Positions 3,246 to 63,553 of a DNA stretch of 64,000 nt are shown here, piece by piece. The DNA is from an uncultured Gammaproteobacteria bacterium (GTDB taxonomy: Bacteria; Patescibacteriota; Microgenomatia; Levybacterales; UBA12049). The stretch spans positions 131,676 through 195,675 of the forward strand of contig CAYQEE010000001.1 of assembly GCA_964416445.1 (NCBI GenBank), written 5' to 3'. Numbering within the stretch: position 1 is the stretch's first letter; every line of letters begins with the position of its first letter. A program made the translations under genes and the position numbers. The notes beneath the pieces were generated by a model, which saw nothing but the letters and a program-made list of their open reading frames with translations, was not told where the DNA came from and made no database searches.

Positions 3246-3249
3246 TTAT

Positions 3250-18437: not shown

Positions 18438-18730
18438 AAAAGTTAGAATTTAGTATCCTTTGTATTGTCGTTATTGTCGCTTTAGCACTTATTTGTGTGA
18501 AAATAGGGGTTGATACGCTTTTTACCGCAAGTGGAGATGAATACAGTCAAATCCAAACAGAGACGCAAAAGCTACAAACTGAAAATATTATTCTGAAAGA
18601 GCGAATTCTTGCGCAATCATCCTATTTTAATATTGCGTCTGAAGCAGCCTCTCTCGGATTTATTCCGAGTGATGCAAAGACAAGTATTGTCCTAACAAAT
18701 CCAGCCGAACCATTTGCATATAACCAATGA
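18434..18730 (+). CDS. ftsL: Cell division protein FtsL-like (TM plus coiled coil)
   Basis: 98 aa with an N-terminal TM helix and a coiled-coil segment. It sits between rsmH and ftsI with 4-nt overlaps on each side. Confidence 0.55.
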   Translation: MKKLEFSILCIVVIVALALICVKIGVDTLFTASGDEYSQIQTETQKLQTENIILKERILAQSSYFNIASEAASLGFIPSDAKTSIVLTNPAEPFAYNQ

Positions 18731-20427
18731 GGTGGAGATATCTTCTCATTTTCATTTTATTTATTCTGTCATTCCTGAGTATATGGATGAAGCTTGGTTA
18801 TTGGCAATTAGTGAAAGCAGAAGAGCTGTCCAGTATGGGACAAGCGCAATATGCGCAATATTTAGAAATACCTCCGAATCGTGGTGATATTGAGACATCA
18901 GATACATTTCCATTTGTTACGAATAAGATGTCGTATCTTGTTTATGGCAATCCCAAATTAGTACAAGATGTTGCGAAACTGTCCCAAACGTTGGCTCCCT
19001 TTTTACAAAGTGATCCTGCATCGATAAGTGCAGAATTATCATTAAACCGTGTTTGGGTGCCATTAAGAACGGGAGTGGATAATACAGTGAAAGAACAAAT
19101 CGATGCGTTGCATATTCCTGGTATCGGTTTTCAAGAAACTCCATCTCGTTATTATCCTGAAGCTTCAATGGCAGCCCAATTAGTTGGTTTTGTTGGCAAA
19201 GATACTTTTGGTGAAGATAAAGGATATTTTGGGCTCGAAGGCTATTATGATTGGCAATTACGAGGAAGAGTTGGAAGAACAACAATTATTCATGACGCAT
19301 TTGGAAAACCGGTGCTTGCGAAATTAACAGAAAATTCAGGACAGCAAGATGGCAGAACACTTATTCTTCATGTCGACCGAAGGATTCAGTATTTGGTTGA
19401 ACAGCAATTATCAGCCGGTATTCAAAAATTTGGTGCACAGAGTGGCACTGCTGCTGTAATGGATCCCAAAACAGGTGGAATTCTTGCGATGGCGAGTTTT
19501 CCTTCATTTGATCCCCGTAATTTTTGGCAATACGACCAATCATTATATGTGAATCCTTTTATCACTGATACGTATGAGCCTGGTTCAACGTTTAAACCTT
19601 TAGTGATGGCTGCTGCATTTGATGCTGGCCTTTTGGTGCCAACAAGTACATGTCCTTCATGTTCAGGTCCTGCAGAAGTTGGCGGATATGCTATTCATAC
19701 ATGGGACGATAAGTACTTTCCCAATACAAATATGATCGATATTATGATCCACTCAGATAATACCGGAATGGTATATGTAGCACAAAAGCTTGGATTAAAT
19801 GGTATGCTGAGTTATTTACATAAATTTGGAATTGGTCAGCAAACAGGAATTGATTTACAAGGAGAATCATCGCCTGATTTAAAAGTACCTGATCAATGGT
19901 ATCCGGTTGATCTAGCGACAGCTGGGTTTGGGCAAGGATTAGCAGTAACTCCGATAGAACTCCTTGATGCTTTTTGCAGTATTGGCAATGGAGGAGCAAG
20001 AATGGAACCCCATGTAGTTTCACAAATTCATACTGCAGATGGGCAAACGATCACAATTCCTCCGAAAGTACTCGATCGACCAATTTCTCCCATTACCGCA
20101 AAAGTAATGACAGAAATATTAGTTGATACGGTAAATAAAGGAGAAGCAAGCTTCGCGAGATTGAAAGGGTACCGAATTGCAGGGAAAACAGGAACTGCAT
20201 CCATTGCAAAAGATGGACACTATGATAGTCGGAATACTATTGCCTCTTTTGAGGGATTAGTTCCGGCAGATAATCCGAAATTTTGTATGCTCGTTGTATT
20301 AAACCAACCGCAAGTGTCTATTTATGGTTCTGAAACAGCTGCCCCAATATTTTTTAATATTTCTCGTGATCTTTTAAATTATTATGGTATTATGCCAACA
20401 GAACCATTAACAACCACCAGTCAATAA
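18727..20427 (+). CDS. ftsI: Penicillin-binding protein (FtsI/PBP2-type transpeptidase)
   Basis: Transpeptidase motifs SxxK ('STFKP'), SxN ('HSDNTGM') and KTG ('GKTGTAS'). An N-terminal TM helix is present. Confidence 0.85.
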   Translation: MRWRYLLIFILFILSFLSIWMKLGYWQLVKAEELSSMGQAQYAQYLEIPPNRGDIETSDTFPFVTNKMSYLVYGNPKLVQDVAKLSQTLAPFLQSDPASISAELSLNRVWVPLRTGVDNTVKEQIDALHIPGIGFQETPSRYYPEASMAAQLVGFVGKDTFGEDKGYFGLEGYYDWQLRGRVGRTTIIHDAFGKPVLAKLTENSGQQDGRTLILHVDRRIQYLVEQQLSAGIQKFGAQSGTAAVMDPKTGGILAMASFPSFDPRNFWQYDQSLYVNPFITDTYEPGSTFKPLVMAAAFDAGLLVPTSTCPSCSGPAEVGGYAIHTWDDKYFPNTNMIDIMIHSDNTGMVYVAQKLGLNGMLSYLHKFGIGQQTGIDLQGESSPDLKVPDQWYPVDLATAGFGQGLAVTPIELLDAFCSIGNGGARMEPHVVSQIHTADGQTITIPPKVLDRPISPITAKVMTEILVDTVNKGEASFARLKGYRIAGKTGTASIAKDGHYDSRNTIASFEGLVPADNPKFCMLVVLNQPQVSIYGSETAAPIFFNISRDLLNYYGIMPTEPLTTTSQ

Positions 20428-24310: not shown

Positions 24311-25696
24311 TTACCAGGAAAATGGTAGTTGAAATAATTTTTTATCAACGCAATATTGTAATCGGTTCAAAATTGCGGAAGGATACTCTTTTGAGAGAAA
24401 ATCAAACTTGGGGCGGTAATACATATTTGCCATAGAAAATTGCGATACATAGTGATACAGCGTTTCTACCGATGCTGTTAATGTTTGTTGAGAAGCAGTA
24501 ACTGGTGAAACATGCATATCATATCCTGTGGTATAGAAGGACTCGTTTTTTTGGTAAATATCATATGGCCAATAATGCTTCGCTAAATGAGAAGGGTATT
24601 GTATTGATAAGTCTGCTTGAGGACGTCCTGTGGTTGGGTCATTGAGTAAATTAAATAGCATAAGAGAAACGCCAATTGTTCCTATTGTGTAGGGGTTTTC
24701 CTTTCGTACTACTTTTTCATAAAAATCATTCATGCTTGGTAGCTGTTCAAACATCGTAAACGTCGAATTATATCCTAAACGGTTTGGGCAAAATTCGCCA
24801 AAATAGATTGCATCAGTTTCTTGGTCAATTAAGAGCGATGCATCCCAAATAAATAGTCCTTGGTGTTTTTTTGCCAATTCATCAACAATGGGTGGAAATG
24901 CAATATCATGAATTTTCCCTTGCATTGGTAACGGGAAAACAATATCTCCTGCAGAGCCAACTTGGAAGGAAATGTTACCGCTCCCGATGAATTTATTTTC
25001 TATCATGAGGTTCATTCCCAGTGGAACACCATCATAATAGATTTTTTCAGGAGTTATTTCGATGACTGAAGGGATTTTTTTTTCTAAAAAAAATCCAGAA
25101 TTTTCATATGCTTCTTGATGAATAAGTAGATTCTCAATAATGTGTTTTGTTGCCACGTGAGGATTTTCGGTGTGCGGAAGGAATGTAGGAATTGCTTCTG
25201 TTTGACTTTTAAGTACCCAGACATGTTTCGTATTTTTCAGAAATGATATCGCGTCTGCAACTCGTTGGAATGGTTGTTTCTCTGCAACCAGTAATTCTGA
25301 GTAATGCGAAAGAACAAAATCTTTTGCAAGGTTTCGATCAATTTCAAAAAGTCTATTTTGCATGGTAGGAAATTGACCATGAAATCCTAACTTCTTTACT
25401 TTTTCAGCGTAATAATATAAGGTATTAGATTCACAAATCACAAAATAATTTTGCGGATCAGGTATTTTTTTTAATTGACTAATCAAGGTGTCAGCAGGAA
25501 TTTTTTCAATCATATTGTCATATCGCATGAGGCGATGCTTTGTATCATAGCTATCTTCTTCGTTTTGTAATGCTTCAGAGGTGATAATGCCTTTATCATT
25601 TTGTACTTGTCCAACAATCACTTCATGTCCTTCTTGTTGTAAATGGTAAGCTAAAGCGAGTCCATTTCCTTCGTACGTAAATACAATATATTTCAT
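24311..25696 (-). CDS. PurD-like ATP-grasp ligase, paralog 1 of 2; function unknown
   Basis: A PurD-like N-domain 'MKYIVFTYEGNGLALAYHL'. The ATP-grasp core 'VWVLKSQTE ... FFLEKKIPSVIEITPEKIYYDG ... GSGNIS' is present. 'YFGEFCPNRLGYNS' corresponds to the PurD 'LEFNxRFGDPE' motif. Confidence 0.55.
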   Translation of the reverse strand: MKYIVFTYEGNGLALAYHLQQEGHEVIVGQVQNDKGIITSEALQNEEDSYDTKHRLMRYDNMIEKIPADTLISQLKKIPDPQNYFVICESNTLYYYAEKVKKLGFHGQFPTMQNRLFEIDRNLAKDFVLSHYSELLVAEKQPFQRVADAISFLKNTKHVWVLKSQTEAIPTFLPHTENPHVATKHIIENLLIHQEAYENSGFFLEKKIPSVIEITPEKIYYDGVPLGMNLMIENKFIGSGNISFQVGSAGDIVFPLPMQGKIHDIAFPPIVDELAKKHQGLFIWDASLLIDQETDAIYFGEFCPNRLGYNSTFTMFEQLPSMNDFYEKVVRKENPYTIGTIGVSLMLFNLLNDPTTGRPQADLSIQYPSHLAKHYWPYDIYQKNESFYTTGYDMHVSPVTASQQTLTASVETLYHYVSQFSMANMYYRPKFDFLSKEYPSAILNRLQYCVDKKLFQLPFSW

Positions 25697-25697
25697 A

Positions 25698-27101
25698 TTA
25701 AAAGGTTACCGGAAAAGGAAGGGTATATAATTTTTTCTGTAATCCATATCGTAAGCGATTTAATATTGATGTTGAGTAGTCCATTGATAAATAATCTGAT
25801 TTTGGTCGGTAATACACACCTGCTAGTGAAAAATTTTCAACATTTCGAAAAAGATGTCTGACTGATTCATCAATTGTTTTTCCAGATCCTGTAATTAAAG
25901 AAAGATACCAATCAGTGCCAACTATTCTCATCTTATCATTTTTCTTTTTTTTGTACACATCGAACGGCCAGACATCTTTTTGAATCATTTCCGGATAATT
26001 AATTGATGCTCCTGAAAGAATATGACGTTCATGGGGATCACGGGAAAGATTAAAGAGCGTGACTGAAGACCCAACGGTTCCTAAAGTAAATGGATTTTTC
26101 TTTTTGACAACTGATTCAAAAAAATGACTTGTTGATGGTAATTGAGCCAGTTCGGTAAAAAACGAATTGTATCCGACTCGATTTGGACAAAACTCACCAA
26201 AATAAACAATGCCTGTGTGTTTATCAATTAATAGTGATGCGTCCCAAATAAAAAGCCCTTTATGTCTTTTCGCTAATCGGTCCACAATTGGAGGAAAACA
26301 AATATCATGTATTTTACTTTCCATACTTATTGGAAAAACAAGATCTGCTGCACAGTAGGTTTGGATTGAAAGGTTACCACTACCAATCGGTTTATTCTCA
26401 AAATTAATGGTCATTCCTAATGGAACGCCGTCGTAATAAATTTTCTCCGGAGTGATTTCAACAACTGACGGAATTTTACGTTCAAGTATAAATCCGGCCT
26501 CTTCATAATAGTCTTTAAATGCTTCCATATTTTCAATGACTTGTCTTTTGGCAAGCTCGACATTATTCGTTGTCGGAACAAATGTTTGTGAGATTTCTGT
26601 TTTTCCTTTCAGTACCCAAACCGTTTGGGAATCTTTGAGAAATTTCTTTGCACGGTTTATTGTGCGAAATTCTTCTTTTTCAGCGATTTGTACTGATGGA
26701 TAATATTTTTTTACAAAATTTTTCGAATAGTCTCGGTCAACTTCAAATAAACGATCTTGTTCAGTAGGAAAAATTCCATGAAATCCTAAATCTTTTATTG
26801 CGTCAGCGTAACGAAAAAGATTATTAAAATCAAAGAAGACGAAATAATCGTGTGGATTTTTAATTCGACGCATTCGTTTAATAAGTGTATCAGCGGGAAC
26901 CCGTTCAACGATATTTTTATAGAGTGAAAGGCGACGTTTCTTAGTAAACGCACTTTCTTCGCCGTTTCTTCTTTTTTCTTCTTTAGTTAATGTTGATTTA
27001 AAATCATCAACATGTCCGATAATTACTTCATTTCCTTCATCCTGGAGATGTTTTGCTAGGGGGTAACCATAGCCATCAAACGTGAAGATAATATATTTCA
27101 T
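25698..27101 (-). CDS. PurD-like ATP-grasp ligase, paralog 2 of 2; a tandem duplicate roughly half identical to its neighbour
   Basis: Same motif set as paralog 1: 'VWVLKGKTE', 'FILERKIPSVVEITPEKIYYDGVPLGM', 'YFGEFCPNRVGYNS'. The gap to its neighbour is 1 nt. Confidence 0.55.
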   Translation of the reverse strand: MKYIIFTFDGYGYPLAKHLQDEGNEVIIGHVDDFKSTLTKEEKRRNGEESAFTKKRRLSLYKNIVERVPADTLIKRMRRIKNPHDYFVFFDFNNLFRYADAIKDLGFHGIFPTEQDRLFEVDRDYSKNFVKKYYPSVQIAEKEEFRTINRAKKFLKDSQTVWVLKGKTEISQTFVPTTNNVELAKRQVIENMEAFKDYYEEAGFILERKIPSVVEITPEKIYYDGVPLGMTINFENKPIGSGNLSIQTYCAADLVFPISMESKIHDICFPPIVDRLAKRHKGLFIWDASLLIDKHTGIVYFGEFCPNRVGYNSFFTELAQLPSTSHFFESVVKKKNPFTLGTVGSSVTLFNLSRDPHERHILSGASINYPEMIQKDVWPFDVYKKKKNDKMRIVGTDWYLSLITGSGKTIDESVRHLFRNVENFSLAGVYYRPKSDYLSMDYSTSILNRLRYGLQKKLYTLPFPVTF

Positions 27102-27162
27102 TAATAACTTATAATGTTAAACGAATCTCAGCGGGAAATCAATATTAGATTTACTCTTCCTG

Positions 27163-28443
27163 GTGTTCTTTTGCTATCAGGGATATAATACGATCATGTG
27201 GCAACAAGCTAAAAATATTTATCACTTACTTATTTCCTTTTTTGTGAATCTTTCTCAAGGATTTCCAGGGCGGAAATTAATTGTCATTGGGGTTACAGGG
27301 ACAAGTGGGAAAACAACCACGTCGCATATGCTCTATGAAGTTCTGAGAGCGTCAGGAAAACAAGTTGCATTAATTTCGTCAATAAAAGCAGTAATTGGCG
27401 GAAAAGATATTGATACAGGATTTCATGTTACAACGCCAGGCCCGGATGTATTACCAAAATATTTACATCAAGCAGTCGAAGCTCATGATCACTATGTTGT
27501 TCTTGAAGTTTCTTCTCATGCGCTTGATCAAAATCGAGCAGCATTTATTCCTTTTCATATAGGAGTTTTAACGACGCTTGCCCATGAACACTTGGATTAC
27601 CATAAGACATTTCTCAATTATGCAAAAGCGAAATTTAAGTTACTCCACAGAGCAAAAACTGCTGTAATTCCTGAGAAAAGTATTCCGCTTGATATTAAAA
27701 AAGGGGTACATTATGAAAAACTTAAAAAGGTCGTAACGTTTGGATTGTCACAAGGACAAGTAACTCAATCAGAATGGCAATTGCGCCTGAAAGTCCCAGG
27801 AGATTATAATCTCCTGAATGCACTTGCAGCAGCTGCAGTTGGAGAACTTCTCCATATTCCCCATGATAGTATTAAAAAAACGTTAGAAAACTTTTCTGCA
27901 ATTCCGGGGAGGTTTGAAGAAATTCCTAATGCATTTGGTTTTCGAGTTATTATTGATTTTGCTCATAAACCCGATGCGTTAGAAGAAGTTTTGAAAACAG
28001 CACGAAAACAAGTAACAACAAATGGGAGAATTATTGTCATGTATGGATGTGCAAGCCAGCGTGATGTATTAAAACGGCCTATTATGGGAAAAATAAGTGG
28101 AGAACTTGCTGAAATCACTGTTTTAACTGATGAAGATCCACGACTGGAAAATTCTATGAAAATTATCAACGAGATAGCACAAGGTTGTCTTGAAGCACAC
28201 GCAAAAGAAATATCCGCGAGAGCGCATCAACCTTCAACAAAAACACATGTTTTTTATAAAATACCAAACCGAAAAGAAGCAATTATCTTTATCATAACGA
28301 AACTTGCAAGAAAAGATGATATTATACTGTTTTGTGGAAAAGGTCATGAACAATCGATGAATTATCATGGAATTGAAACACCTTGGAATGAACATCTTGT
28401 TGTTGCTAATGCATTAGCCATGTATGGAGAAAAAAAACATTAA
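27163..28443 (+). CDS. MurE-like Mur ligase lacking the N-terminal UDP-binding domain
   Basis: P-loop 'GVTGTSGKTTTS' sits at residue ~45. 'LAHEHLDYHKTF', 'GRFEEI', 'DFAHKPDALEEVL' and 'GCASQRDVLKRPIMG' are Mur ligase motifs. C-terminal 'GKGHEQ' is MurE-like. Only 61 nt separate it from the divergent upstream gene, so there is no room for a canonical N-domain. Confidence 0.6.
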   Translation: MFFCYQGYNTIMWQQAKNIYHLLISFFVNLSQGFPGRKLIVIGVTGTSGKTTTSHMLYEVLRASGKQVALISSIKAVIGGKDIDTGFHVTTPGPDVLPKYLHQAVEAHDHYVVLEVSSHALDQNRAAFIPFHIGVLTTLAHEHLDYHKTFLNYAKAKFKLLHRAKTAVIPEKSIPLDIKKGVHYEKLKKVVTFGLSQGQVTQSEWQLRLKVPGDYNLLNALAAAAVGELLHIPHDSIKKTLENFSAIPGRFEEIPNAFGFRVIIDFAHKPDALEEVLKTARKQVTTNGRIIVMYGCASQRDVLKRPIMGKISGELAEITVLTDEDPRLENSMKIINEIAQGCLEAHAKEISARAHQPSTKTHVFYKIPNRKEAIIFIITKLARKDDIILFCGKGHEQSMNYHGIETPWNEHLVVANALAMYGEKKH

Positions 28444-29863: not shown

Positions 29864-31192
29864 ATGGACATATTTAAAGTGACCGGTGGTATACCGTTAC
29901 GAGGAACAACATCCGTTTCAGGTGCCAAGAACGCTGCATTGAAAGCCGTTGTTGCAGCGTGTTTAACGTCTGAAGAAGTTATCATTCATAACATTCCGCT
30001 GATTTCAGATTTTTACTATATGGTAGACATTATGAAGCTTTTGGGAGCTTCCGTTGTTATAAAAGACCATACCGTTCATGTACGCATGAAAAAATTTCAT
30101 CGATCGACCATTCCTCTTGATATTGCCGCTCAAATGCGAACTTCCGCAATGTTTATTGGCCCGCTCCTCGCTCGTACGGGGAAAGCATTAATACCCAATC
30201 CTGGAGGGTGTCGGCTTGGAGCACGTCCCATAGATCGAACAATTAATGGGGTGCGACATTTGAATGCAAAAATTGCTTATAACAGCGAAGACGGTTATTT
30301 TCATGCACAAACAAGAAAACTCAAAGGTACAATGTATACTTTTGAAAAGAACACCCATGTCGGTACAGAAACGATGATTATTGCGGCAGCCCTTGCAGAA
30401 GGTAAAACAATACTGAAAAATGCCGCAGAAGAGCCTGAAATTGATGATCTGATTGAACTATTAAATAATATGGGTGCAAATGTGATGCGTACCGCAAAAA
30501 GAGAAATAACGATTGTTGGGGTAGAAAAGCTTCATGGAGCTACCATTACTATTCACCCTGATCGTAATGAAATTGTTACTTTTGCCATTGCTGCTATTTT
30601 AACAAAAGGTGATATTTTTATTAATGACGCACATACCGTCGATTTACAAGCGTTTCTTACTGCAGTAGATCAAGCAGGTGCAGGATACGAAAAAACAGAG
30701 AAAGGAATTAGATTTTATGCAAAAGATACAATTCAAGCAACGAATTTGACAACGTCAGTATATCCAGGATTTATGACGGACTGGCAAGCGCCATGGGCAA
30801 TTCTTATGACTCAAGCACAAGGGACATCAACAATACATGAGACAGTATTTGAAAATAAGTTTGGCTACATTTATGATTTACGAAAAATGGGTGCTCATAT
30901 CGATTTTTACAATCCTCAAGTTCAAAATCCTGAAGCAGTGTATAATTTTAATTTATCAGATGATCGACCTGATTATTATCATGCTATCAAGATTTTTGGT
31001 CCAACCAAGCTGCATAATGCGATAGTCACGATGATTGATATTCGCGCAGGAGCCGCTGTTGTATTAGCTGCATTAGCTGCAAAAGGTACGTCGACAATTT
31101 TTGGTATTGAAAAGCTTGATAGAGGATATGAAAAATTTGAGAAACGATTACGAAGTCTTGGTGCAAAAGTAAAACGAATGAGACAACCATGA
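29864..31192 (+). CDS. murA: UDP-N-acetylglucosamine 1-carboxyvinyltransferase
   Basis: 'MDIFKVTGGIPLRGTTSVSGAKNAALKAVVAACL' is the canonical MurA N-terminus. Size is 442 aa. Confidence 0.9.
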   Translation: MDIFKVTGGIPLRGTTSVSGAKNAALKAVVAACLTSEEVIIHNIPLISDFYYMVDIMKLLGASVVIKDHTVHVRMKKFHRSTIPLDIAAQMRTSAMFIGPLLARTGKALIPNPGGCRLGARPIDRTINGVRHLNAKIAYNSEDGYFHAQTRKLKGTMYTFEKNTHVGTETMIIAAALAEGKTILKNAAEEPEIDDLIELLNNMGANVMRTAKREITIVGVEKLHGATITIHPDRNEIVTFAIAAILTKGDIFINDAHTVDLQAFLTAVDQAGAGYEKTEKGIRFYAKDTIQATNLTTSVYPGFMTDWQAPWAILMTQAQGTSTIHETVFENKFGYIYDLRKMGAHIDFYNPQVQNPEAVYNFNLSDDRPDYYHAIKIFGPTKLHNAIVTMIDIRAGAAVVLAALAAKGTSTIFGIEKLDRGYEKFEKRLRSLGAKVKRMRQP

Positions 31193-31920
31193 AAGATAAC
31201 ATTGCAGCAATTATTCTTGCAGCGGGAAGAGGTAAACGAATGGAATCAACTGATAAAAATAAAGTTGTCTTTCCTTTAAAAGGAAAACCAATGATTGCGT
31301 ATACTATTCGTTTACTTAACGAGTTGGATATTTCTGAAATTATCGTTGTTGTGGGTTTTGCAAAAGAATCAGTGTATGAAGTATTAGGAACATCTGTACA
31401 GTATGCTGAACAAAAAGAACAGCGAGGAACAGCGGATGCGGTATGGGAGGGTCTAAAAAAAGTATCTGATTCGGTATCACATATTTTGGTATTGAATGGT
31501 GACGATTCTGCATTCTACACGAAAGAAGTAGTACAAGCGCTTATAACAAAGCATATTCATTCTTCGGATGTCATAACATTATTGACAACAAAACGAGAAA
31601 ATCCATATGGAATTGGAAGAATAGTCAGGACAAAAAACAAAAAATTAGTTAAAATAGTGGAAGAGAAGGATGCAAGTGAAGAAGAAAAAATGATAACTGA
31701 AGTCAATGTTGGGTGTTATCTCTTTACAAGTTCGTATCTTAAGAGAGCGCTTCCCAAATTAGAAAAAAGTTCTATCACCGGCGAGTATTATTTAACAACG
31801 TTGGTTGATATGGCGCTGCAAGAAAAGTTACCAGTTGAAACAGTTACTGATCCGAATTTACGATGGCATGGAATCAATACGAAGGAAGATTTACAAAAGG
31901 CAGAAACCTATTTTATGTAA
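31189..31920 (+). CDS. GlmU-like N-terminal sugar nucleotidyltransferase domain, as a stand-alone gene
   Basis: 'AAIILAAGRGKRMES' is the G-x-G-x-R NTase motif. At 243 aa it matches the GlmU pyrophosphorylase domain only. Confidence 0.6.
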   Translation: MKDNIAAIILAAGRGKRMESTDKNKVVFPLKGKPMIAYTIRLLNELDISEIIVVVGFAKESVYEVLGTSVQYAEQKEQRGTADAVWEGLKKVSDSVSHILVLNGDDSAFYTKEVVQALITKHIHSSDVITLLTTKRENPYGIGRIVRTKNKKLVKIVEEKDASEEEKMITEVNVGCYLFTSSYLKRALPKLEKSSITGEYYLTTLVDMALQEKLPVETVTDPNLRWHGINTKEDLQKAETYFM

Positions 31921-31926
31921 TAGATC

Positions 31927-32568
31927 ATGAATAATACATTTGCGCCAGAGCACTATTTTGATTTAACAAATTGTACATTTGCTGATATCTTTCAAGGGAA
32001 AGAAGCAGTATGGGAAGTTTTAGGAAATTTGGGAGACTTCTTACAAAAACAATTTACCGACAAAAAGATCATTGCGAATTATAAGGATAGTACCAACATT
32101 TATGTCGGTGAAGGAACGATTATTGAAGAAGGCGCGTATATTAAAGGTCCAGCAATTATTGGAAAAAATTCATTTATTGGTCATGCCGCTTATTTACGGC
32201 AAAATTGTCTTTTTGATGATGATGTCTCAATTGGACATGGAAGTGAAGTAAAAAATAGTATTGTCTTTTCCCATTCTGCAATTGCTCATTTGAATTATAT
32301 TGGCGATAGTATATTTGGACACAATGTTAATATCGGTGGTGGAGCGAAAACAGCTAATTTCCGATTAGATGGAAGGACGATTCCTGTTAGAGAGGGAGAT
32401 AACAAGATTGATACGGGGCTCACGAAATTTGGAGCGATTTTGGGTGATGAAACAAAAATAGGAGTTAATGCTGTTTTGAATCCGGGAACTATTCTTGGAA
32501 AACGAGTCCATGTTTTTCCTCTCAAGCTGGTATTTGGAACCCATGGTGAGGGAACAGTTATTAAATAA
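31927..32568 (+). CDS. Left-handed beta-helix (hexapeptide-repeat) acyltransferase, probably the separated GlmU acetyltransferase half
   Basis: Hexapeptide repeats are visible, for example 'IGDSIFGHNVNIGGGAKTANF'. It begins 6 nt after the NTase gene. Confidence 0.55.
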   Translation: MNNTFAPEHYFDLTNCTFADIFQGKEAVWEVLGNLGDFLQKQFTDKKIIANYKDSTNIYVGEGTIIEEGAYIKGPAIIGKNSFIGHAAYLRQNCLFDDDVSIGHGSEVKNSIVFSHSAIAHLNYIGDSIFGHNVNIGGGAKTANFRLDGRTIPVREGDNKIDTGLTKFGAILGDETKIGVNAVLNPGTILGKRVHVFPLKLVFGTHGEGTVIK

Positions 32569-35020: not shown

Positions 35021-35713
35021 ATGACAAAAACCATTGTTATTCTTCATGGTTGGAGACTAACAGGGCAAAAATATCAAAATATCCAGAAAATTTTTGAGCA
35101 GCATGGTTTTACTGTATATTCTCCTGATTTACCGGGAAGTGGATCTGAAAAATTAACCAAACCGATTATGAAAATAGATGATTATATCGATTTTGTGGTT
35201 GACTATTTCCAAAAACATACTATTAAGAAAGCTATTGTTATTGGTCATTCATTTGGGGGAAGAGTTGGTGCAAAACTTGCTGCAACACATCCAGAATTGG
35301 TCGAAAAATTAATTCTCACTGGTGCACCATTAATAAAACAACAGTTGCCATTTCGTAAAAAAGTACTTGTTTATTTTGCTAAATTTGTTAAAAAGATAGT
35401 TATAGCAAAAAAAATGAGAAAATTACTGTATTATATTCTTGGCGAGTGGGATTATTATAAAACAACTCCTGAAATTCGTGAAACGTTTAAAGCAATCATA
35501 GCTGAGGATATTGCACAAAATCTTTCTCAAATCACCGTACCCACTTGTATTATTTGGGGTGGTGAGGATACATTTGTTGGCAAGTCGTTAGGTCGGCAAA
35601 TTGCTAGTCAAATTCCAGGTTCAACATATAAGGAAATTCCTCATGCAACGCATAAACTGCCTTATGAATATCCAGAAAAGTTCGCAGGGAGTGTTTTATC
35701 ATGGGTGCAGTAA
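35021..35713 (+). CDS. Alpha/beta-fold hydrolase
   Basis: 'IVILHGW' together with the nucleophile elbow 'GHSFGG'. Confidence 0.65.
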   Translation: MTKTIVILHGWRLTGQKYQNIQKIFEQHGFTVYSPDLPGSGSEKLTKPIMKIDDYIDFVVDYFQKHTIKKAIVIGHSFGGRVGAKLAATHPELVEKLILTGAPLIKQQLPFRKKVLVYFAKFVKKIVIAKKMRKLLYYILGEWDYYKTTPEIRETFKAIIAEDIAQNLSQITVPTCIIWGGEDTFVGKSLGRQIASQIPGSTYKEIPHATHKLPYEYPEKFAGSVLSWVQ

Positions 35714-37317
35714 CCATTGCTTCGTATTTCCACACTATTGTTTTCGGGGCCTTTATCCTTTGGGTACTAAGGAATGTCCTTTTTTGGGTTGGTTTGTGGC
35801 AAGATAAAGAATATCGATTAGATAGATTAGTGGTTCATTTGACAGAAACCGTACAAGGGAGACATGTATTTACTTCATGGGGTAATAGATTAAAATGGTT
35901 ATTTTTTTTAGGATATATCTTTGTTGCTTTCTATGATACCTATGCGACCTGGTATGAATTATTGCTCGGATTATTCTTTATTCTCCAAGCATTATTTATT
36001 ATCAAAGATGGATGGTATCATCGGATAAAACGTCCAGTTTTTACTTCCAAAGCACTTGTCCTCATTGTGCTGAGTCTATTATTTATAAGTGTTTTTTTGA
36101 TTTACCCGCTGATGAATACTTTCTTTTGGTTATTATTTGTCGACCGAACACTCCCTTTTGTTGTTGCACTTTTTGTCTTTTTTATGGCATTTCCGACAGA
36201 GGTTGCCGAAGATATTAAAATTGGCAATGCAAAAAAAAAGATGCAGCGGTTAGAAAAAATATTGGTTATTGCGGTAAGCGGTAGTTATGGGAAAACATCA
36301 ACAAAAGAGTATATTGCACAGGTACTATCGCATAAATACAAAGTTGTTAAAACACCTGGATCAAATAATACTCCTGTTGGTATAGCAAATACGATCTTGC
36401 ACAAAATACATAATGATACGGAAGTATTTGTGGTTGAAATGGGTGCTTATAAACTCGGAGAAATTGCCGAATTAACTCAAATTGTTGCTCCATCAATCAG
36501 TGTTACTACTGCTATCAGTGATCAACATATATCTCTCTATGGAAGTTTACAAAATGTTATTAATTCTGAATATGAACTCATTCACGCGTTACCAAAAAAT
36601 GGTTTGGCATTGTTTAATGGGAACAGTAAAAATATAGAAAAACTTTTTGATCGAGCAAAAATTGAGAAGGTGTGGTATCAAGTATTTACTCGAAAGCCAA
36701 AAGACAATCCGCGAATTGGAGCATATCATGTTCAAGCGAGTATTCGCGGAGTAACGTTTACTGCATTGTTACATGGAAAAGAATTCTTGTGTAAAACACC
36801 ATTGTTTGGTGTCCATGTGGTTGAAAATATTTTACCTGCTCTATTTTTAGCAGATCGTTTAGGATTTAGCAAAAAAGAAATGAGTAAAGCAATAGCAGAA
36901 TTGCAACCTCCTGCACAAACGATGATCAAACGTGAGTTGCGCAATGGTGCGTTTGCAATGGATGACACATTTAATGCAAGTCCTGAGTCGGTTTTTTCAG
37001 CAATGGATTTTTTAAAGCTTTCACCGAAAAAGAAAATATTTGTCTTAGCTCCTCTTACCGAACTTGGCAGTGAAGCAAAAAAAAGACATTTTCAGGTAGG
37101 AGAAAAAGCAAGCGGAATATGTGATTTCTTATTTTTACTCAACAGTAATTTTTCATCTGAAATCTCGAAAGGCGTTATTGAAGGAAAGGGAACTTGTCAC
37201 GTACAAATTGCTCGGCCTGAAGAAATAGCAAAAATCATTGCAAAACTTACGAAAAAAGGAGATATGATAATCTTTGAAGGAAAAGAATCAAAAATGGTTA
37301 TGAATAAATTATTATGA
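35701..37317 (+). CDS. MurF-like UDP-MurNAc-pentapeptide synthetase catalytic and C-terminal domains, fused to a ~190-aa N-terminal polytopic membrane domain
   Basis: MurF motifs: 'AVSGSYGKTSTKEY', 'GSNNTPVGIANTIL', 'VVEMGAYKLGEIAEL', 'MDDTFNASPESV'. The first ~190 aa have about 5 hydrophobic helices and replace the usual MurF domain 1. Confidence 0.65.
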   Translation: MGAVTIASYFHTIVFGAFILWVLRNVLFWVGLWQDKEYRLDRLVVHLTETVQGRHVFTSWGNRLKWLFFLGYIFVAFYDTYATWYELLLGLFFILQALFIIKDGWYHRIKRPVFTSKALVLIVLSLLFISVFLIYPLMNTFFWLLFVDRTLPFVVALFVFFMAFPTEVAEDIKIGNAKKKMQRLEKILVIAVSGSYGKTSTKEYIAQVLSHKYKVVKTPGSNNTPVGIANTILHKIHNDTEVFVVEMGAYKLGEIAELTQIVAPSISVTTAISDQHISLYGSLQNVINSEYELIHALPKNGLALFNGNSKNIEKLFDRAKIEKVWYQVFTRKPKDNPRIGAYHVQASIRGVTFTALLHGKEFLCKTPLFGVHVVENILPALFLADRLGFSKKEMSKAIAELQPPAQTMIKRELRNGAFAMDDTFNASPESVFSAMDFLKLSPKKKIFVLAPLTELGSEAKKRHFQVGEKASGICDFLFLLNSNFSSEISKGVIEGKGTCHVQIARPEEIAKIIAKLTKKGDMIIFEGKESKMVMNKLL

Positions 37318-38549
37318 AACGAGTAAATGCTATTGGGTTATCACCAAATACGAGCATGCGCGATGTTCTTATTGCCTGCAAACAAATGATTAACCCACGA
37401 ACCTATCAAAAAGGCCCTGCGATAACCACTATCGAAAAATGGTTTCTCTCGTATTTTCAGGTAGGATCTGCGGTTTCGTTTTCTCATGGACGAACTGCAC
37501 TCTATGCGATCATGAAAGCGCTTGAAATTGGAAGAGGTGATGAAGTTATTTTACAAGCGTTTACTTGTGTAGTTGTTCCTAATATGATTGTTGCTTTGGA
37601 TGCACAACCAATTTATGCGGATATTACGAAAAACTTGACGATAGATCCTCGTGATGTTGAAAAAAAAATTACCAAAAAAACAAAAGCAATTATTGTACAA
37701 CATACGTTTGGTATTCCTGCAGATATGGAGGCACTTATGGCCATTGCAAAGAAACATAAGATATCGCTTATTGAAGATGTTGCTCATACCATTGGAGGTA
37801 CCTATAAGGGGAAAAAATTGGGAACGTTTGGTATAGCAAGTATTTTTAGTTTTGGAAGAGATAAAGCATTCTCCTCGGTATTTGGAGGAATTGCCATTAC
37901 GAATGATACCGATCTTGGAGAAAAATTGCGAAATTTTCAAAAAAATATTCCTTTTCCATCAAAACAATGGATAGCACAACAACTCTTTCATCCGATTGCT
38001 TTTTCCGTTATTTTGCCTACATATAATTCGGGGTTTGGAAAGCTTATCCTTGTTGTGTTGCAGAAATTACATTTCTTATCCTTTCCAGTAAGTCGTGATG
38101 AGCGAAAGGCACTCTTTTCTCAATCATTGCTGAAGCGATTTCCTAATGCTCTTGCGATACTTGCATTGCAACAACTTGAGCAGCAAGAAAAATTTAATTC
38201 AAAAAGAATAGCAATTAGCCAAAAATATCAAGAAGTATGCCAAGTGAAAGGTATTTCGATTATGAGCAATGAACGATATCCTTACCTTAGATTTCCTCTT
38301 CGAGTAGCAAACCCCCAAGCAATGCGCTCATTTTTTAAAGCGAAAAGGAATATTTATTTAGGCGATTGGTATGCACATGTTCTTGATCCCAGAGGGAGTG
38401 ATTTTACAGCAGTTTCCTATACAAAAGGATCTTGTCCTGTCGCTGAAGCTATTGCCTGTCAAATTATCAACTTGCCAACATACCCATCGATGTCAGACAA
38501 TGATGTGACTGAGGTAATTGATCTCCTCAAACAATATGATACAAATTAA
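37314..38549 (+). CDS. DegT/DnrJ/EryC1/StrS-family PLP-dependent sugar aminotransferase
   Basis: Family motifs 'ILQAFTCVVVPNMI', 'IIVQHTFGIPADM' and 'SFGRDKAF' (PLP lysine region). Confidence 0.75.
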   Translation: MKRVNAIGLSPNTSMRDVLIACKQMINPRTYQKGPAITTIEKWFLSYFQVGSAVSFSHGRTALYAIMKALEIGRGDEVILQAFTCVVVPNMIVALDAQPIYADITKNLTIDPRDVEKKITKKTKAIIVQHTFGIPADMEALMAIAKKHKISLIEDVAHTIGGTYKGKKLGTFGIASIFSFGRDKAFSSVFGGIAITNDTDLGEKLRNFQKNIPFPSKQWIAQQLFHPIAFSVILPTYNSGFGKLILVVLQKLHFLSFPVSRDERKALFSQSLLKRFPNALAILALQQLEQQEKFNSKRIAISQKYQEVCQVKGISIMSNERYPYLRFPLRVANPQAMRSFFKAKRNIYLGDWYAHVLDPRGSDFTAVSYTKGSCPVAEAIACQIINLPTYPSMSDNDVTEVIDLLKQYDTN

Positions 38550-39552
38550 AGAAATCATCAGTAAAACAAGTTGGAATGCTTTTTTAGAACTTATTCCAGC
38601 GGAAAATTATCCTTTTTTCCAAACATGGAATTGGGGAGAGATTCAAAAAAATAACGGATTTCCTATTATCCGGCTAGGTATATATGATGAAAATAAATTA
38701 GTTGGTATTTGTTTAGTTGTTGATATTAATGCAAAACGAGGTCACTATTTCCATTTGCGTCATGGGCCCGTCTTGCTTGATTTTGAAAAATATTTCGATC
38801 CCTTAATCGGGTATATAACAAAACAAGCACAAGCGAAGAACGCTGCATTTTTGCGAATAAGTCCGCTTTTAAAAAAAGATACACTTTTTTTAGATTTTTT
38901 TATAAAACGAAAATTTCGATACGCACCTATTCATAATATGGATGCAGAGATTTGTTCATTGTTGAATATTCAAAAATCTGAACAGGAATTGTTAAGTGGA
39001 ATGAGGAAATCTCATCGGTATTTGATAAAAAAAGCGAAAACGATGACAATTAGCATTCGTAAAAGTACGGACAAAAAAGATATAGAAAATTTTTTGCAGC
39101 TCTATGAAGATTTTTCATCCAAAAAGCATTTTGTTGCGCATAAGGGAATTCTTGAGGAATTTACCGTATTACAGAAAGATGATGAAATTGCTTTATTTCT
39201 TGCTACCTACGAAGAAAAAATTATAGCAGGAATTCTTATCGATTATATTGGTCCTGTTGCCATTTATCATCATGCAGCAAGCAATGCGCAATATCGTAAT
39301 ATTCCTGCAAATTATTTGCTTCTATGGGAAGCTATTATTGAAGCGAAAAAGCGGAACAAATTGTATTTTAACCTCTGGGGAATTGCTCCGACAGAAAGTA
39401 AAAAACATCCTTGGAGTGGGTTTACTCTTTTTAAGACTGGCTTTGGTGGCGAACGAGTAGAATTTTTGCATGCTATGGATTTACCTTTATCGCAATCGTA
39501 CTGGAAAACATATGTTATCGACTGGATAACAAAGAAACGAAAAGGATACTAA
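38518..39552 (+). CDS. FemAB-family aminoacyl-tRNA-dependent peptidoglycan peptidyltransferase
   Basis: The N-terminus '[31 protein letters not shown]' matches the FemABX consensus. Size is 344 aa. Confidence 0.6.
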
Positions 39553-44812: not shown

Positions 44813-45003
44813 CAAAGAGAAAAAATTATTTACCCAGTCTTACCCTTTATATTCAATACTTGCTTGATATAGCTTGCTTCGTTATAAAGAATATTATGTA
44901 ATATTTGCGCATATATGAAAAAATATCGTTTTGTCAAAGAAATATTACCACTATATACTTTAATTTCTTTAGTGGCTGTTGTAGAGTAATAGTATACCGT
45001 GAC

Positions 45004-61482: not shown

Positions 61483-62549
61483 ATGCTTTGTTTTCGAATA
61501 TTCAATAAAATACCAATCGAACATAAATCAATGATTAATGATGAACCCCCATACGAAATGAAAGGCAGTGGAACCCCGGTGAGAGGAAACAATGTTGTCT
61601 GAGCTCCTAAATTAATAATCATTTGCATTGTTAAAAATGCGGTGATGCCACCTGCTAATAGTTTACCAAACGTATCTCTTGCTCGCATAGCTATAAAGAG
61701 TCCTCTCCAAGCAAGGACTGCTAATACGACAAGCAAAATGGTTGAACCTATAAAACCAAATTCTTCTGCGATGATAGCAAAAATAGAATCAGTAGTGTTC
61801 TCGGGTAAATACGCATATTTTTGCAGTGAATTACCAATGCCTACTCCTGTAAGTCCTCCCGAACCAAGGGCAATTAATATTTGTGTGACATGATAATGCG
61901 CGGGGTTTGAGGGATCGGTAGGATTAAGGAATGTTGCTAATCGTTTCGCGCGATATGGTTCAATCTTAATGAGAATAAACCCAAGAATGCCCAGAATTGG
62001 TCCCATAATACCTAAATAGAGAAAATTTCCCCCCGACAGAAAATATAAAATGAGTGCTTCAGAAAGAATAATAATTGCTGTTCCCATATCAGGTTCTAAA
62101 AGAACTAAAACGAGAACAAGTCCGACTAATAAGAGAAAGGAAAAAAATCTTCCTTTTTCTTTATTGGAAAACCATGCAGCAAGGTATATGGCTAACGTTA
62201 ATTTAACGAACTCTGCAGGTTGCAGTACCGTAAAGTGGAAATTAAGCCATCGGTGAGCGCCTAAAATTGGTTGACTCAATCCAGGAATAAACACCATCAG
62301 TAGGAGAAGAATAGCAAGAATAAGTAAAGGAAGTGATAGTTTATAAAATTTGTGATAATCAAAATAAGTCAGAAAAGACATTCCAATAAATCCAAAAATC
62401 ATCCATATCGATTGATCCTTAATGTAATGAAATTTATCTCCATGGAAATCACGGTATGAAATAAATGATGAAGCGTCGTAAATCATGAGAAAGCCAAATA
62501 ACGTTAGTGCAATAACACCAATGAGCAGTACGAGGTCTATTTTTTTCAT
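61479..62549 (-). CDS. ftsW: SEDS-family lipid II flippase/peptidoglycan polymerase FtsW
   Basis: Start at the internal ATG at 62549, giving 'MKKIDLVLLIGVIALTLFG', which overlaps the mraY stop by 4 nt. 'ENTTDSIFAIIAEEFGFIGS' is the SEDS signature. Confidence 0.85.
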   Translation of the reverse strand: MKKIDLVLLIGVIALTLFGFLMIYDASSFISYRDFHGDKFHYIKDQSIWMIFGFIGMSFLTYFDYHKFYKLSLPLLILAILLLLMVFIPGLSQPILGAHRWLNFHFTVLQPAEFVKLTLAIYLAAWFSNKEKGRFFSFLLLVGLVLVLVLLEPDMGTAIIILSEALILYFLSGGNFLYLGIMGPILGILGFILIKIEPYRAKRLATFLNPTDPSNPAHYHVTQILIALGSGGLTGVGIGNSLQKYAYLPENTTDSIFAIIAEEFGFIGSTILLVVLAVLAWRGLFIAMRARDTFGKLLAGGITAFLTMQMIINLGAQTTLFPLTGVPLPFISYGGSSLIIDLCSIGILLNIRKQSI

Positions 62550-63553
62550 CTGATGAGCGCGAGATATAGTCCGACGATAGCAAAGAAGAAACCGAGTAAC
62601 CAAGCCCGCATAACAATTTTAGGTTCTTCCCATCCTTTATGTTGCAAATAGAGATGAAAAGGCGATACAGGAAATAATTTTTTATGAAAAAACTTTTTCC
62701 AAATCATTTGTAATAATGATGATCCTGCTTCAATAATAAAAACGCCTCCGATGACGGCAAGCGCGATTGTTTTTCCGGATAACAAACCAATCACTGCTAA
62801 CACAGCACCTAATGATAATGAACCGACATCTCCGAGCCAGATTCTCGCTTTATAGATATTAAAATAAAGAAAGGCTCCCACAGACCCCATAAGTAGAGCA
62901 ATAAAAATACCGAGCGATGGGTCCAATTGTTGTGCTGAAATAGCTAAAAAGGCGACAAGACAAATAAGAAATAATCCTGATGCGAGCCCATCTAATCCAT
63001 CAGCGATATTAGAAGCGTTTGCAAACCAAACAATTACAGCAGCTGCAAACGGAATATATAAATAACCGACACTTGCCAGACCAAAACCACGTATGTAGAT
63101 AAAATTACCATTTAATTTTGTATAAAAAATAACGGCAATAATTAATGCAAGGATCAATTGAATAATGAGTTTATGACGAAGTCTAAGGCCAAAAAATGCT
63201 GATCGAATATTAGTCATTTTTTTTAGATCATCATACAGACCAAGCATACCAAAACCTATAAACGAAATGAGAAGTACTGTTAATGCCCAAGGGTTAATTT
63301 TTACATTTAAAAGACCATAGGCCCAAAACGTAAGAATTGAGACTGCAACAATAATGAGCAGTCCTCCCCCAATAGGAGTGCCAACTTTCCAAGAATGAAA
63401 TTTATCAAAGATTGTTGCACGTTTATTGAAAGGATCTTTCGTTGCTTGCGTACGTCGTTGCAGCTTAATTTTATATAAGAAATCAATAAAAGGCACAAGT
63501 AAAATTGCCGTGATAAACGACGATAATATGGATAAACCGAGGAGTTGCACCAT
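62546..63553 (-). CDS. mraY: Phospho-N-acetylmuramoyl-pentapeptide transferase
   Basis: 'NASNIADGLDGLASG' is the MraY signature. About 10 TM helices. Confidence 0.9.
   Translation of the reverse strand: MVQLLGLSILSSFITAILLVPFIDFLYKIKLQRRTQATKDPFNKRATIFDKFHSWKVGTPIGGGLLIIVAVSILTFWAYGLLNVKINPWALTVLLISFIGFGMLGLYDDLKKMTNIRSAFFGLRLRHKLIIQLILALIIAVIFYTKLNGNFIYIRGFGLASVGYLYIPFAAAVIVWFANASNIADGLDGLASGLFLICLVAFLAISAQQLDPSLGIFIALLMGSVGAFLYFNIYKARIWLGDVGSLSLGAVLAVIGLLSGKTIALAVIGGVFIIEAGSSLLQMIWKKFFHKKLFPVSPFHLYLQHKGWEEPKIVMRAWLLGFFFAIVGLYLALIR

What the first reader, a model, noticed from the sequence alone, without database searches (positions are those of the whole stretch)
27163..28443. MurE-like ligase without the N-terminal UDP-binding domain
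The P-loop 'GVTGTSGKTTTS' starts at residue ~45. Only 61 nt separate the ATG from the divergently transcribed neighbour, so the ~90-aa N-terminal domain of canonical MurE cannot be present.

Middle and C-terminal MurE motifs are intact: 'GRFEEI', 'DFAHKPDALEEV', 'RDVLKRPIMG' and 'GKGHEQ'. The architecture resembles MurT, CapB and FolC, which act on non-UDP substrates.

Together with the membrane-fused MurF, this points to a non-canonical precursor pathway in this organism.
Basis: partly seen in the sequence, partly recalled or inferred. Interest (0 to 1): 0.55.

Follow-up and report, generated by a model that had tools for sequence, protein, structure and literature searches.

The report
MurE ligase lacking its uridine-binding domain
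This gene is the cell-wall enzyme MurE of a Levybacteria-like (Candidate Phyla Radiation) bacterium; it truly lacks the N-terminal uridine-binding domain, as do its many relatives in that group, and MurF has lost the same domain, but it most likely still does the normal MurE job.

Summary
The ORF (best start ATG 27196, 415 aa) has only the Mur ligase middle and C-terminal domains. Its P-loop sits at residue 32, and no reading frame upstream could encode domain 1.

It is not an assembly error. Two independent assemblies give the same gene. Dozens of CPR orthologs (Levy-, Davies-, Gottesman-, Woese-, Roizman-, Collierbacteria, some Saccharibacteria) have an in-frame stop 57 or fewer codons before the P-loop (76-77 in two Saccharibacteria loci).

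By sequence profile, fold, conserved residues and gene position it is MurE, not MurT, FolC, CapB or cyanophycin synthetase. Its nearest full-length relatives are Chloroflexota MurE, which share every catalytic and substrate motif and differ mainly by having domain 1.

MurF has also lost domain 1 in these lineages; here a four-helix membrane anchor replaces it. MurC in the window and MurD in a related genome keep their UDP-binding domains.

A lipid-linked substrate, as for MurT, is a low-probability, high-interest alternative.

I found no paper describing this domain loss. I rate it a new variant of a known kind, of moderate interest.

The parts
27196..28443 (+). murE, short form (415 aa). An alternative GTG start at 27163 would give 426 aa.
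   Evidence: TIGR01085 scores 329.8 bits, above the 257.3 cut-off. AF2 mean pLDDT is 92.9. Foldseek top hits are MurE.
27102..27195 (.). 94-nt intergenic gap to the divergent gene on the other strand; no coding room for domain 1
   Evidence: The promoter and terminator scan found nothing above chance.
27196..27288 (+). Residues 1-31. A single N-terminal helix (2-20) plus linker, homologous to the last helix before the P-loop strand of full-length MurE. It carries the short-form-specific conserved N7 and H10.
27289..27318 (+). ATP-binding P-loop GVTGTSGKTT (residues 32-41)
   Evidence: invariant in alignment A1
27292..27840 (+). Mur ligase middle domain. Contains TTP (79-81), S107, Q112, R114 and K146.
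   Evidence: Pfam PF08245, 5e-36. Residues are invariant. They match Mtb T195/T196/S222/R230 (alignment; residue roles from PMC6736417).
27907..28344 (+). Mur ligase C-terminal domain (binds the incoming amino acid)
   Evidence: Pfam PF02875, 2.6e-24
28132..28143 (+). EDPR motif at the position of the DNPR (meso-DAP) motif
   Evidence: role of DNPR from PMC3829189
28424..29857 (+). murC, full length with its N-terminal UDP-binding domain; overlaps the murE stop by 20 nt
   Evidence: TIGR01082 416 bits, cut-off 335; PF01225 at residues 8-107
29864..31192 (+). murA (UDP-GlcNAc enolpyruvyl transferase family)
   Evidence: PF00275, 4.7e-75
35701..37317 (+). murF, 538 aa. Domain 1 is replaced by four predicted transmembrane segments (residues 2-172).
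   Evidence: (TIGR01143 profile positions 71-407 only)
18727..20427 (+). ftsI-type PBP. It is the gene immediately upstream of short murE in most related CPR loci; here about 6.7 kb of other genes lie between.
62546..63553 (-). mraY, followed on the minus strand by ftsW (61479-62603) and murG (60364-61524)

Best explanation
The ORF is the true, functional MurE of a Levybacteria-like (Microgenomates, CPR) bacterium. MurE is the ATP-dependent ligase that adds the third residue to the D-Glu of the peptidoglycan precursor.

It belongs to a large CPR clade in which the roughly 90-residue N-terminal domain 1, the uridine-binding part, has been cleanly deleted. What remains is the helix that leads into the P-loop strand.

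Shown:
- Domain 1 is absent, and the absence is conserved across many genomes.
- It is MurE by profile, by fold and by gene position.
- The residues for ATP binding, catalysis and MurNAc-peptide binding are conserved.
- MurF has lost the same domain in parallel, while MurC and MurD keep theirs.

Inferred:
- It holds the substrate through the domain-2 pocket (TTP 79-81, S107, R114) without gripping the uridine. The short-form-specific N7 and H10 on the N-terminal helix may help.
- The residue added is probably L-Lys or L-Orn rather than meso-DAP, because the motif is EDPR and not DNPR. This last point has low confidence.
For: Identity as MurE:
- Pfam finds the M and C domains only.
- TIGR01085 scores 329.8 against a cut-off of 257.3, aligned to profile positions 78-471.
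- Best PDB sequence hits are MurE of T. maritima (6.6e-51) and M. tuberculosis.
- The AF2 model has pLDDT 92.9. Foldseek ranks 1-34 are all MurE or plant MurE-like proteins, with TM-score up to 0.84.

Not an artefact:
- Two independent Logan assemblies carry the identical gene and neighbours.
- All 120 closest clusters have M and C domains only. Those called full length are about 390-461 aa with the P-loop at about residue 32 or 41; a few are fragments.
- In 35 CPR genome loci the in-frame stop lies 57 or fewer codons before the P-loop, or 76-77 in two Saccharibacteria loci.
- 83 of the 149 nearest 50%-identity representatives are short.

Orthology:
- Short murE sits directly after ftsI in most of the CPR loci. 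The order is ftsI-murE-murF-mraY-ftsW-murG in Daviesbacteria and ftsI-murE-murC-murA in others.

Same enzyme as the long forms:
- 43 long homologs (41 from loci labelled Chloroflexota or otherwise GC-rich, plus 2 CPR) share H77, TTP, S107, Q112, R114, K146, DFAH(T/K)P, RD..KR, EDPR and GKGHE. They differ mainly by having domain 1.

A UDP pathway is present:
- MurA, split GlmU, GlmS and full-length MurC are in the cluster.
- A normal MurD occurs in L071, a genome with short MurE.
Against: - No biochemical data exist for any short form.
- Equivalog-level NCBIfam models are not reached (best is NF001126, 317 against a cut-off of 373).
- Domain 1 is described as important for recognising UDP (PMC6113224), so its loss should weaken binding of the UDP substrate.
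- MurF lost the same domain in parallel and gained a membrane anchor here. That hints at a shared cause which this explanation does not account for.
- MurD was not found in this window.
- The rest of this genome could not be searched for a second MurE or a stand-alone domain 1.
Confidence: 0.78

Rival explanations
1. Changed substrate. MurE and MurF of these CPR bacteria, having lost the uridine-binding domain, act at the membrane on undecaprenyl-PP-linked MurNAc-peptides, as MurT/GatD acts on lipid II. MraY would then transfer a shorter precursor earlier in the pathway.
For: - Both ligases whose domain 1 has the MurE/MurF type have lost it, while MurC and MurD have not.
- In this genome and in at least 120 related clusters, a four-helix membrane domain is fused to MurF exactly where domain 1 was.
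- For MurT it has been argued that the pyrophosphate sits at the boundary between the N-terminal and middle domains, and that a UDP-binding domain would clash with the membrane (PMC6113224).
Against: - MurE has no hydrophobic segment. Its highest 19-residue Kyte-Doolittle window is 1.38, and the N-terminal helix is only moderately amphipathic. That helix is homologous to a helix also present in the long forms.
- MurF of Daviesbacteria and other lineages is short but has no membrane segment before the P-loop.
- The domain-2 contact residues are unchanged relative to the long Chloroflexota enzymes.
- It would require an unprecedented MraY specificity.
- A membrane anchor on MurF can equally serve to deliver UDP-MurNAc-pentapeptide to MraY.
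Confidence: 0.1
2. Domain 1 supplied in trans. The uridine-binding function is provided by a separate polypeptide or by a partner in a complex (for example MurF, MurC or MurD), so the holoenzyme is effectively canonical.
For: - murE overlaps murC by 20 nt, which suggests co-expression.
- MurE-MurF fusions and complexes exist (PDB 8f5d).
- Only 64 kb of this genome could be searched.
Against: - An HMM of Chloroflexota MurE domain 1 finds all long forms, including the CPR ones L010 and L014 (85 and 71 bits). It finds nothing at E<=10 in the six-frame translations of the window or of the 35 short-form loci with 6 kb of flank on each side.
- No conserved extra small gene lies between ftsI and murE.
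- MurF itself lacks the domain.
Confidence: 0.07
3. A different enzyme. It is a MurT-, CapB-, FolC- or cyanophycin-synthetase-like ligase working on a substrate that is not a peptidoglycan nucleotide.
For: It has the same two-domain architecture and a short N-terminus, as in MurT (PMC6113224).
Against: - Profile scores are far below the cut-offs of those families: folC 49 against 162.65, cyanophycin synthetase 80 against 850.
- MurT appears only at E=8e-4 in the PDB sequence search, against 6.6e-51 for MurE.
- Foldseek ranks MurE first by 14 orders of magnitude.
- Pfam finds no DUF1727 domain in the protein, and no GatD-like gene turned up in the scanned ORFs of the window.
- The gene occupies the conserved murE slot after ftsI.
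Confidence: 0.03
4. Artefact. The gene is a truncated pseudogene, or mis-assembly or mis-called frames hide the N-terminal domain.
For: None beyond the unusual length.
Against: - Two independent assemblies agree.
- The start 'MWQ..KN.YH' is conserved in more than 100 clusters.
- Upstream in-frame stops occur in 35 genomes.
- The whole length is strongly conserved, with 55% mean column identity in A1, and the fold is predicted with confidence.
Confidence: 0.01

Closest known systems
Full-length MurE of Chloroflexota (Anaerolineae and relatives), the nearest non-CPR homologs (35-40% identity)
   Same: [quoted passage not shown] All conserved motifs are shared, including H77, TTP, S107/Q112/R114, K146, DFAH(T/K)P, EDPR and GKGHE.SM.
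   Different: These proteins have a canonical domain 1 (DSR...PG.LF.A..G...DGH), about 103-138 residues before the P-loop. In the short form, the conserved Arg of the pre-P-loop helix is replaced by His10.
Structurally characterised MurE (M. tuberculosis 2xja/2wtz, E. coli 1e8c, S. aureus 4c12, T. maritima 4bub)
   Same: The fold of domains 2 and 3 matches, with TM-score 0.78-0.84 normalised to the query. The P-loop and the Mtb T195/T196/S222/R230 equivalents are conserved.
   Different: There is no domain 1, which holds the uridine nucleoside site (PMC3829189). The motif is EDPR, where the DAP enzymes have DNPR, S. aureus has DNPA and T. maritima has DDPR.
MurT (lipid II isoglutaminyl synthase subunit)
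   Same: It is a two-domain Mur ligase with a short N-terminus of about 35 residues and no UDP-binding domain (PMC6113224).
   Different: MurT needs GatD, has a DUF1727-type C-terminal region and amidates lipid II. The query shows only marginal sequence similarity to it (E=8e-4), has no GatD neighbour, and carries MurE-specific motifs.
MurF of the same CPR lineages
   Same: It has lost domain 1 in parallel. The TIGR01143 alignment starts at profile position 64-71.
   Different: It is a different ligase step (D-Ala-D-Ala addition). In Levybacteria it carries a four-helix membrane anchor in place of domain 1, and MurE does not.

Membership tests
MurE (TIGR01085, UDP-N-acetylmuramyl-tripeptide synthetase) | Whole-protein profile score above the curated cut-off | tested here: met
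   329.8 bits against a cut-off of 257.3. The equivalog-level models were not reached (NF001126: 317 against 373).
MurE | Central ATP-binding Mur ligase domain with P-loop, plus the C-terminal Mur ligase domain | tested here: met
   PF08245 at 5e-36 and PF02875 at 2.6e-24; GVTGTSGKTT at residues 32-41
MurE | N-terminal domain 1 (uridine-binding, about 90 aa; PF01225-type) | tested here: not met
   No PF01225 hit. Profile and PDB alignments start after domain 1. No coding room upstream. The domain-1 HMM finds nothing in the window.
MurE | Domain-2 residues that bind the MurNAc-peptide and diphosphate (Mtb T195, T196, S222, R230), and the conserved Lys of the Y..AK motif | tested here: met
   T79/T80, S107, R114 and K146 are invariant or nearly so in short and long forms. 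Residue roles come from PMC6736417. The carbamyl-Lys assignment is from my own knowledge of E. coli MurE.
MurE (meso-DAP-adding type) | DNPR motif in domain 3 | tested here: not met
   The motif is EDPR at residues 313-316. The Asn that binds the DAP carboxylate (PMC3829189) is Asp here, as in the Lys-adding T. maritima enzyme (DDPR). Amino-acid specificity therefore stays open.
MurE | Position in the dcw cluster next to ftsI and other mur genes | tested here: met
   Orthologs lie directly after ftsI in most of the CPR loci examined. In the window, murE is joined to murC-murA and lies 6.7 kb downstream of ftsI.
MurE | [quoted passage not shown] | not testable with these tools
   Needs an enzyme assay
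MurT/GatD | GatD (glutamine amidotransferase) partner gene and a DUF1727-type MurT C-terminal region | tested here: not met
   No such Pfam hit in the protein or in 48 of the 49 ORFs of at least 150 aa in the window. PDB MurT matches only at E=8e-4.
FolC / cyanophycin synthetase | Profile score above the family cut-off | tested here: not met
   folC 49.1 against 162.65; cyanophycin synthetase 80.2 against 850

The most novel reading that the evidence does not exclude
In Microgenomates and related CPR bacteria the last two cytoplasmic ligation steps have moved to the membrane. MurE and MurF, both stripped of the uridine-binding domain (MurF here even anchored by four transmembrane helices at exactly that position), would build the stem peptide on a polyprenyl-PP-MurNAc-dipeptide rather than on a UDP-linked one. 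That would be a re-ordered peptidoglycan precursor pathway.
Probability: 0.08. Interest if true: 0.85.

Novelty: new variant of a known kind. Interest (0 to 1): 0.45.

Why it matters
The three-domain layout of MurC-F, with an N-terminal domain that recognises UDP, is treated as universal and guides inhibitor design. Here a large and diverse bacterial group runs on a two-domain MurE, and on a two-domain or membrane-anchored MurF.

This defines a natural minimal MurE. It raises a testable question about how, or whether, the nucleotide part of the substrate is recognised. It also offers a lineage marker for part of the CPR.

If the substrate has changed to a lipid-linked one, the order of steps in peptidoglycan precursor synthesis would differ from every studied bacterium. 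If it has not, domain 1 is dispensable for MurE and MurF function, which matters for enzymology and for drugs aimed at the UDP pocket.

Tried and rejected
- **Stand-alone domain 1.** An HMM of Chloroflexota MurE domain 1 was run against the six-frame translations of the window and of all loci. It hit only the long forms and found nothing in the window or the short-form loci.
- **Assembly error.** Rejected, because two independent assemblies agree.
- **The divergent neighbours as MurE partners.** The two genes at 24311-27101 are PurD-like ATP-grasp proteins. They are absent from all 80 related murE loci, so they are not a conserved partner.
- **Promoter and terminator scan of the intergenic region.** Nothing above chance.
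- **MurD in the window.** Not present, and the sequence upstream of mraY is unrelated. I used the MurD of a related genome with short MurE instead (L071).
- **Literature.** Searches on MurE with CPR, on Mur ligase with 'lacks the N-terminal domain', on MurE and MurF with Patescibacteria, and on Mur ligase with Saccharibacteria found no description of this domain loss. Only the MurT case came up.
- **Rough NJ tree.** The CPR sequences group together with two long forms nested inside. The tree is too crude to count how many times the domain was lost.

Full report
**1. The observation**

The 27163 start is a GTG. An ATG at 27196 is used by the gene callers on two independent assemblies. It also matches the strongly conserved start 'MWQ..KN.YH' of about 120 homologous clusters. 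I therefore take 27196-28443 as the gene: 415 aa, with the P-loop GVTGTSGKTT at residues 32-41.

The gap to the divergently transcribed gene, which ends at 27101, is 94 nt (61 nt from the GTG). That upstream gene is an intact 467-aa ORF with many conserved homologs. No frame is left for a domain of about 90 residues.

Several results agree that domain 1 is missing:
- Pfam finds Mur_ligase_M and Mur_ligase_C but not the N-terminal PF01225 domain. The neighbouring MurC does have PF01225.
- TIGR01085 (murE) aligns only from profile position 78 of 472.
- PDB MurE sequences align from residue 99 (T. maritima) or 139 (M. tuberculosis).

**2. Not an artefact, and not peculiar to this genome**

Two Logan assemblies from different runs carry the identical protein with the same neighbours.

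All 120 closest 90%-identity clusters carry only the M and C domains. The full-length ones are about 390-461 aa, with the P-loop at about residue 32 or 41. The source names that exist are Candidatus Levybacteria, Daviesbacteria and Microgenomates, and several sources already call the protein MurE.

A scan of one genome per GTDB species returned 80 loci. They split into two clear groups.
- **Low-GC CPR loci.** These include Levy-, Davies-, Gottesman-, Woese-, Woyke-, Roizman-, Beckwith- and Collierbacteria, 'Patescibacteria group' and three Saccharibacteria. The in-frame stop upstream lies 57 or fewer codons before the P-loop (76-77 in two Saccharibacteria).
- **Loci mostly labelled Chloroflexota.** These have 103-138 residues before the P-loop at the most plausible start, which is full length.

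An HMM built from the Chloroflexota N-terminal domains recovers every long form. That includes two CPR long forms, L010 (a Woesebacteria record, 85 bits) and L014 (a Patescibacteria record, 71 bits). It finds nothing at E<=10 in the six-frame translation of the 64-kb window or of the short-form loci with their 6-kb flanks.

Among the 149 best representatives of 50%-identity clusters, 83 are short (P-loop at residue 56 or earlier) and 53 are long (95-129).

A rough NJ tree groups the CPR sequences together, with the two long CPR forms nested inside. The domain was therefore lost within the CPR, once or several times. This tree cannot settle how often.

**3. What it is**

It is MurE by every test I could run except the presence of domain 1.
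- *Profile.* The TIGR01085 score of 329.8 bits exceeds the curated cut-off of 257.3. FolC, cyanophycin synthetase, MurC, MurD, MurF and the pseudomurein ligases all score far below their cut-offs.
- *Fold.* The AlphaFold model is confident (mean pLDDT 92.9, pTM 0.89). The first 34 Foldseek matches in the PDB are MurE or plant MurE-like proteins (E down to 5e-33, TM-score 0.78-0.84 relative to the query). Cyanophycin synthetase, MurC and pseudomurein ligases follow only from E=1e-18.
- *Gene position.* In most related CPR loci the short gene lies directly after ftsI. The order is ftsI-murE-murF-mraY-ftsW-murG in four Daviesbacteria-type loci and ftsI-murE-murC-murA in many others. This is the classical murE slot of the division and cell-wall cluster.
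- *This window.* The cluster reads mraZ-rsmH-...-ftsI, then about 6.7 kb of other genes, then murE-murC-murA-glmU(N)-hexapeptide protein-?-glmS-hydrolase-murF-DegT-FemAB-ftsZ. The genes mraY-ftsW-murG-...-ftsA lie at the far end.

**4. Comparison with the long relatives**

I aligned 35 short sequences with 43 long ones (41 from Chloroflexota-labelled or other GC-rich loci, plus CPR L010 and L014; L055 was mis-binned as long because of an open frame upstream).

Nearly every conserved position is shared between the two groups:
- the P-loop
- H77
- TTP at 79-81
- E104, S107, H108, Q112 and R114
- the HLDYH..Y...K146 block
- GR at 238-239
- DFAH(T/K)P at 254-259
- RD..KR at 289-294
- T311 and EDPR at 313-316
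- GKGHE at 381-385

T79/T80, S107 and R114 align with M. tuberculosis T195/T196, S222 and R230. These are named as key substrate-site residues in PMC6736417. The diphosphate loop Gly83/Ser84 of that enzyme lies in the missing domain.

The alignment of the N-termini shows the short forms beginning a few residues before the last helix of the long forms, the helix that leads into the P-loop strand. The conserved Arg of that helix is replaced by His10. The only strongly short-specific conserved residues are N7, H10 and G298.

So the short protein is the Chloroflexota/CPR-type MurE with domain 1 cleanly removed.

**5. MurF shows the same loss**

The window's MurF (35701-37317, 538 aa) matches TIGR01143 only over profile positions 71-407, with residues 184-529. 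Residues 2-172 form four hydrophobic segments.

This membrane-fused form is conserved over its whole length in at least 120 clusters, named Levybacteria or Patescibacteria where a name exists.

In Daviesbacteria and other Microgenomates the MurF next to short murE is 387-425 aa. Its P-loop lies at about residue 38-48 (at most 74 with the longest possible start), and it has no membrane segment before the P-loop.

By contrast:
- MurC in the window is full length with its N-terminal domain.
- A genome with short MurE (L071) encodes a normal MurD, with its Rossmann-type N-terminus visible in the sequence and a TIGR01087 score of 339 against a cut-off of 212.

So only the two ligases that share the MurE/MurF type of domain 1 have lost it.

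**6. Mechanism**

Best explanation (confidence about 0.78): this is the working MurE. [quoted passage not shown]

The reasons are as follows.
- The enzymes that make UDP-linked precursors are present.
- The MurNAc-peptide pocket in domain 2 is unchanged.

How the loss of the uridine contacts is tolerated is an inference. It may be through weaker but sufficient binding, through N7/H10, or through closeness to partner enzymes.

The motif at the DNPR position is EDPR. The Asn that binds the free carboxylate of meso-DAP (PMC3829189) is Asp here, as in the Lys-adding T. maritima enzyme (DDPR). Together with the FemAB-family gene three genes after murF's neighbourhood, this points weakly to Lys or Orn at position 3. 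The long Chloroflexota forms share EDPR, so this feature is unrelated to the domain loss.

**7. Rivals**

- *(a) Lipid-linked substrate.* MurT also lacks the domain and acts on lipid II. Nöldeke et al. argue that the pyrophosphate sits at the boundary between the N-terminal and middle domains, so a UDP-binding domain would clash with the membrane (PMC6113224). The MurF membrane anchor replaces domain 1 at exactly that boundary. Against this, MurE has no membrane segment, other lineages have short MurF without an anchor before the P-loop, the substrate residues are unchanged, and MraY would need a new specificity. I give it about 0.1.
- *(b) Domain 1 supplied in trans.* No candidate was found nearby. 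About 0.07.
- *(c) A MurT-, FolC- or CapB-like enzyme with another function.* Contradicted.
- *(d) Artefact.* Contradicted.

**8. Novelty and score**

Annotation pipelines already label these proteins MurE, so the gene's identity is not new.

The systematic, clade-wide absence of domain 1 in MurE, with the parallel loss in MurF, did not appear in four targeted full-text searches; only the MurT precedent came up. That library is incomplete, so this is absence of evidence only.

I class it as a new variant of a known kind and score interest at 0.45. It is a real and conserved departure from the textbook three-domain Mur ligase, and it comes with a clear experiment. The most likely outcome of that experiment is that the enzyme does the ordinary reaction.

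Noticed in passing
window 24311-25696 (-) and 25698-27101 (-): Two tandem paralogs (52% identical), divergently transcribed from murE, with no Pfam or NCBIfam family. Homologs are about 470 aa and 53-81% identical over the full length in more than 120 clusters, in Patescibacteria and also in Aquicella lusitana and Gammaproteobacteria MAGs. The AF2 model (pLDDT 91) best matches PurD/GAR synthetase (E 8e-21, about 15% identity), followed by biotin carboxylases. This looks like an uncharacterised PurD-like ATP-grasp ligase family. It is not linked to murE in any of the 80 related loci.
   Followed up: partly
window 35701-37317 (+): MurF has four predicted transmembrane segments (residues 2-172) in place of domain 1. 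This form is conserved in at least 120 clusters of 499-558 aa (plus one partial and one longer fusion). Other Microgenomates have a short MurF (387-425 aa) with no membrane segment before the P-loop, also lacking domain 1.
   Followed up: partly
window 35021-35713 (+) and homolog P0183: An alpha/beta-hydrolase gene sits immediately upstream of murF and overlaps its start. One homolog, P0183 (738 aa), is a MurF carrying alpha/beta-hydrolase Pfam domains, which suggests a functional link between the two.
   Followed up: no
window 37314-39552 (+): A DegT/DnrJ/EryC1-type aminotransferase and a FemAB-family peptidyltransferase lie between murF and ftsZ. This points to a modified sugar or stem peptide, or to an interpeptide bridge, in this organism's wall.
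   Followed up: no
window 31189-32568 (+): GlmU appears split into two genes: a nucleotidyltransferase (243 aa) and a separate hexapeptide-repeat protein (213 aa). In several related loci the hexapeptide hit lies in a longer ORF of 381-493 aa.
   Followed up: no
L003, L009, L012, L016, L020, L022, L023 and other loci: Several low-GC contigs with CPR-type gene order (ftsI-YdjM-murE-murC-murA) carry record titles such as 'uncultured Gammaproteobacteria', 'Limnocylindrales' or 'Methylomirabilota'. These are probably mislabelled or contaminated bins.
   Followed up: no
window 44905-47042 (+): Proteins with a dockerin type I domain (524 aa) and a cohesin domain (188 aa) lie next to each other. These are cellulosome-like modules, unusual in a CPR genome.
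   Followed up: no
L033 (Anaerolineae) 161-3706: A 1158-1182-aa ORF carries a full-length MurE (domain 1 at about 671-760, P-loop at about 780) in its C-terminal half, behind a long N-terminal extension I did not identify.
   Followed up: no
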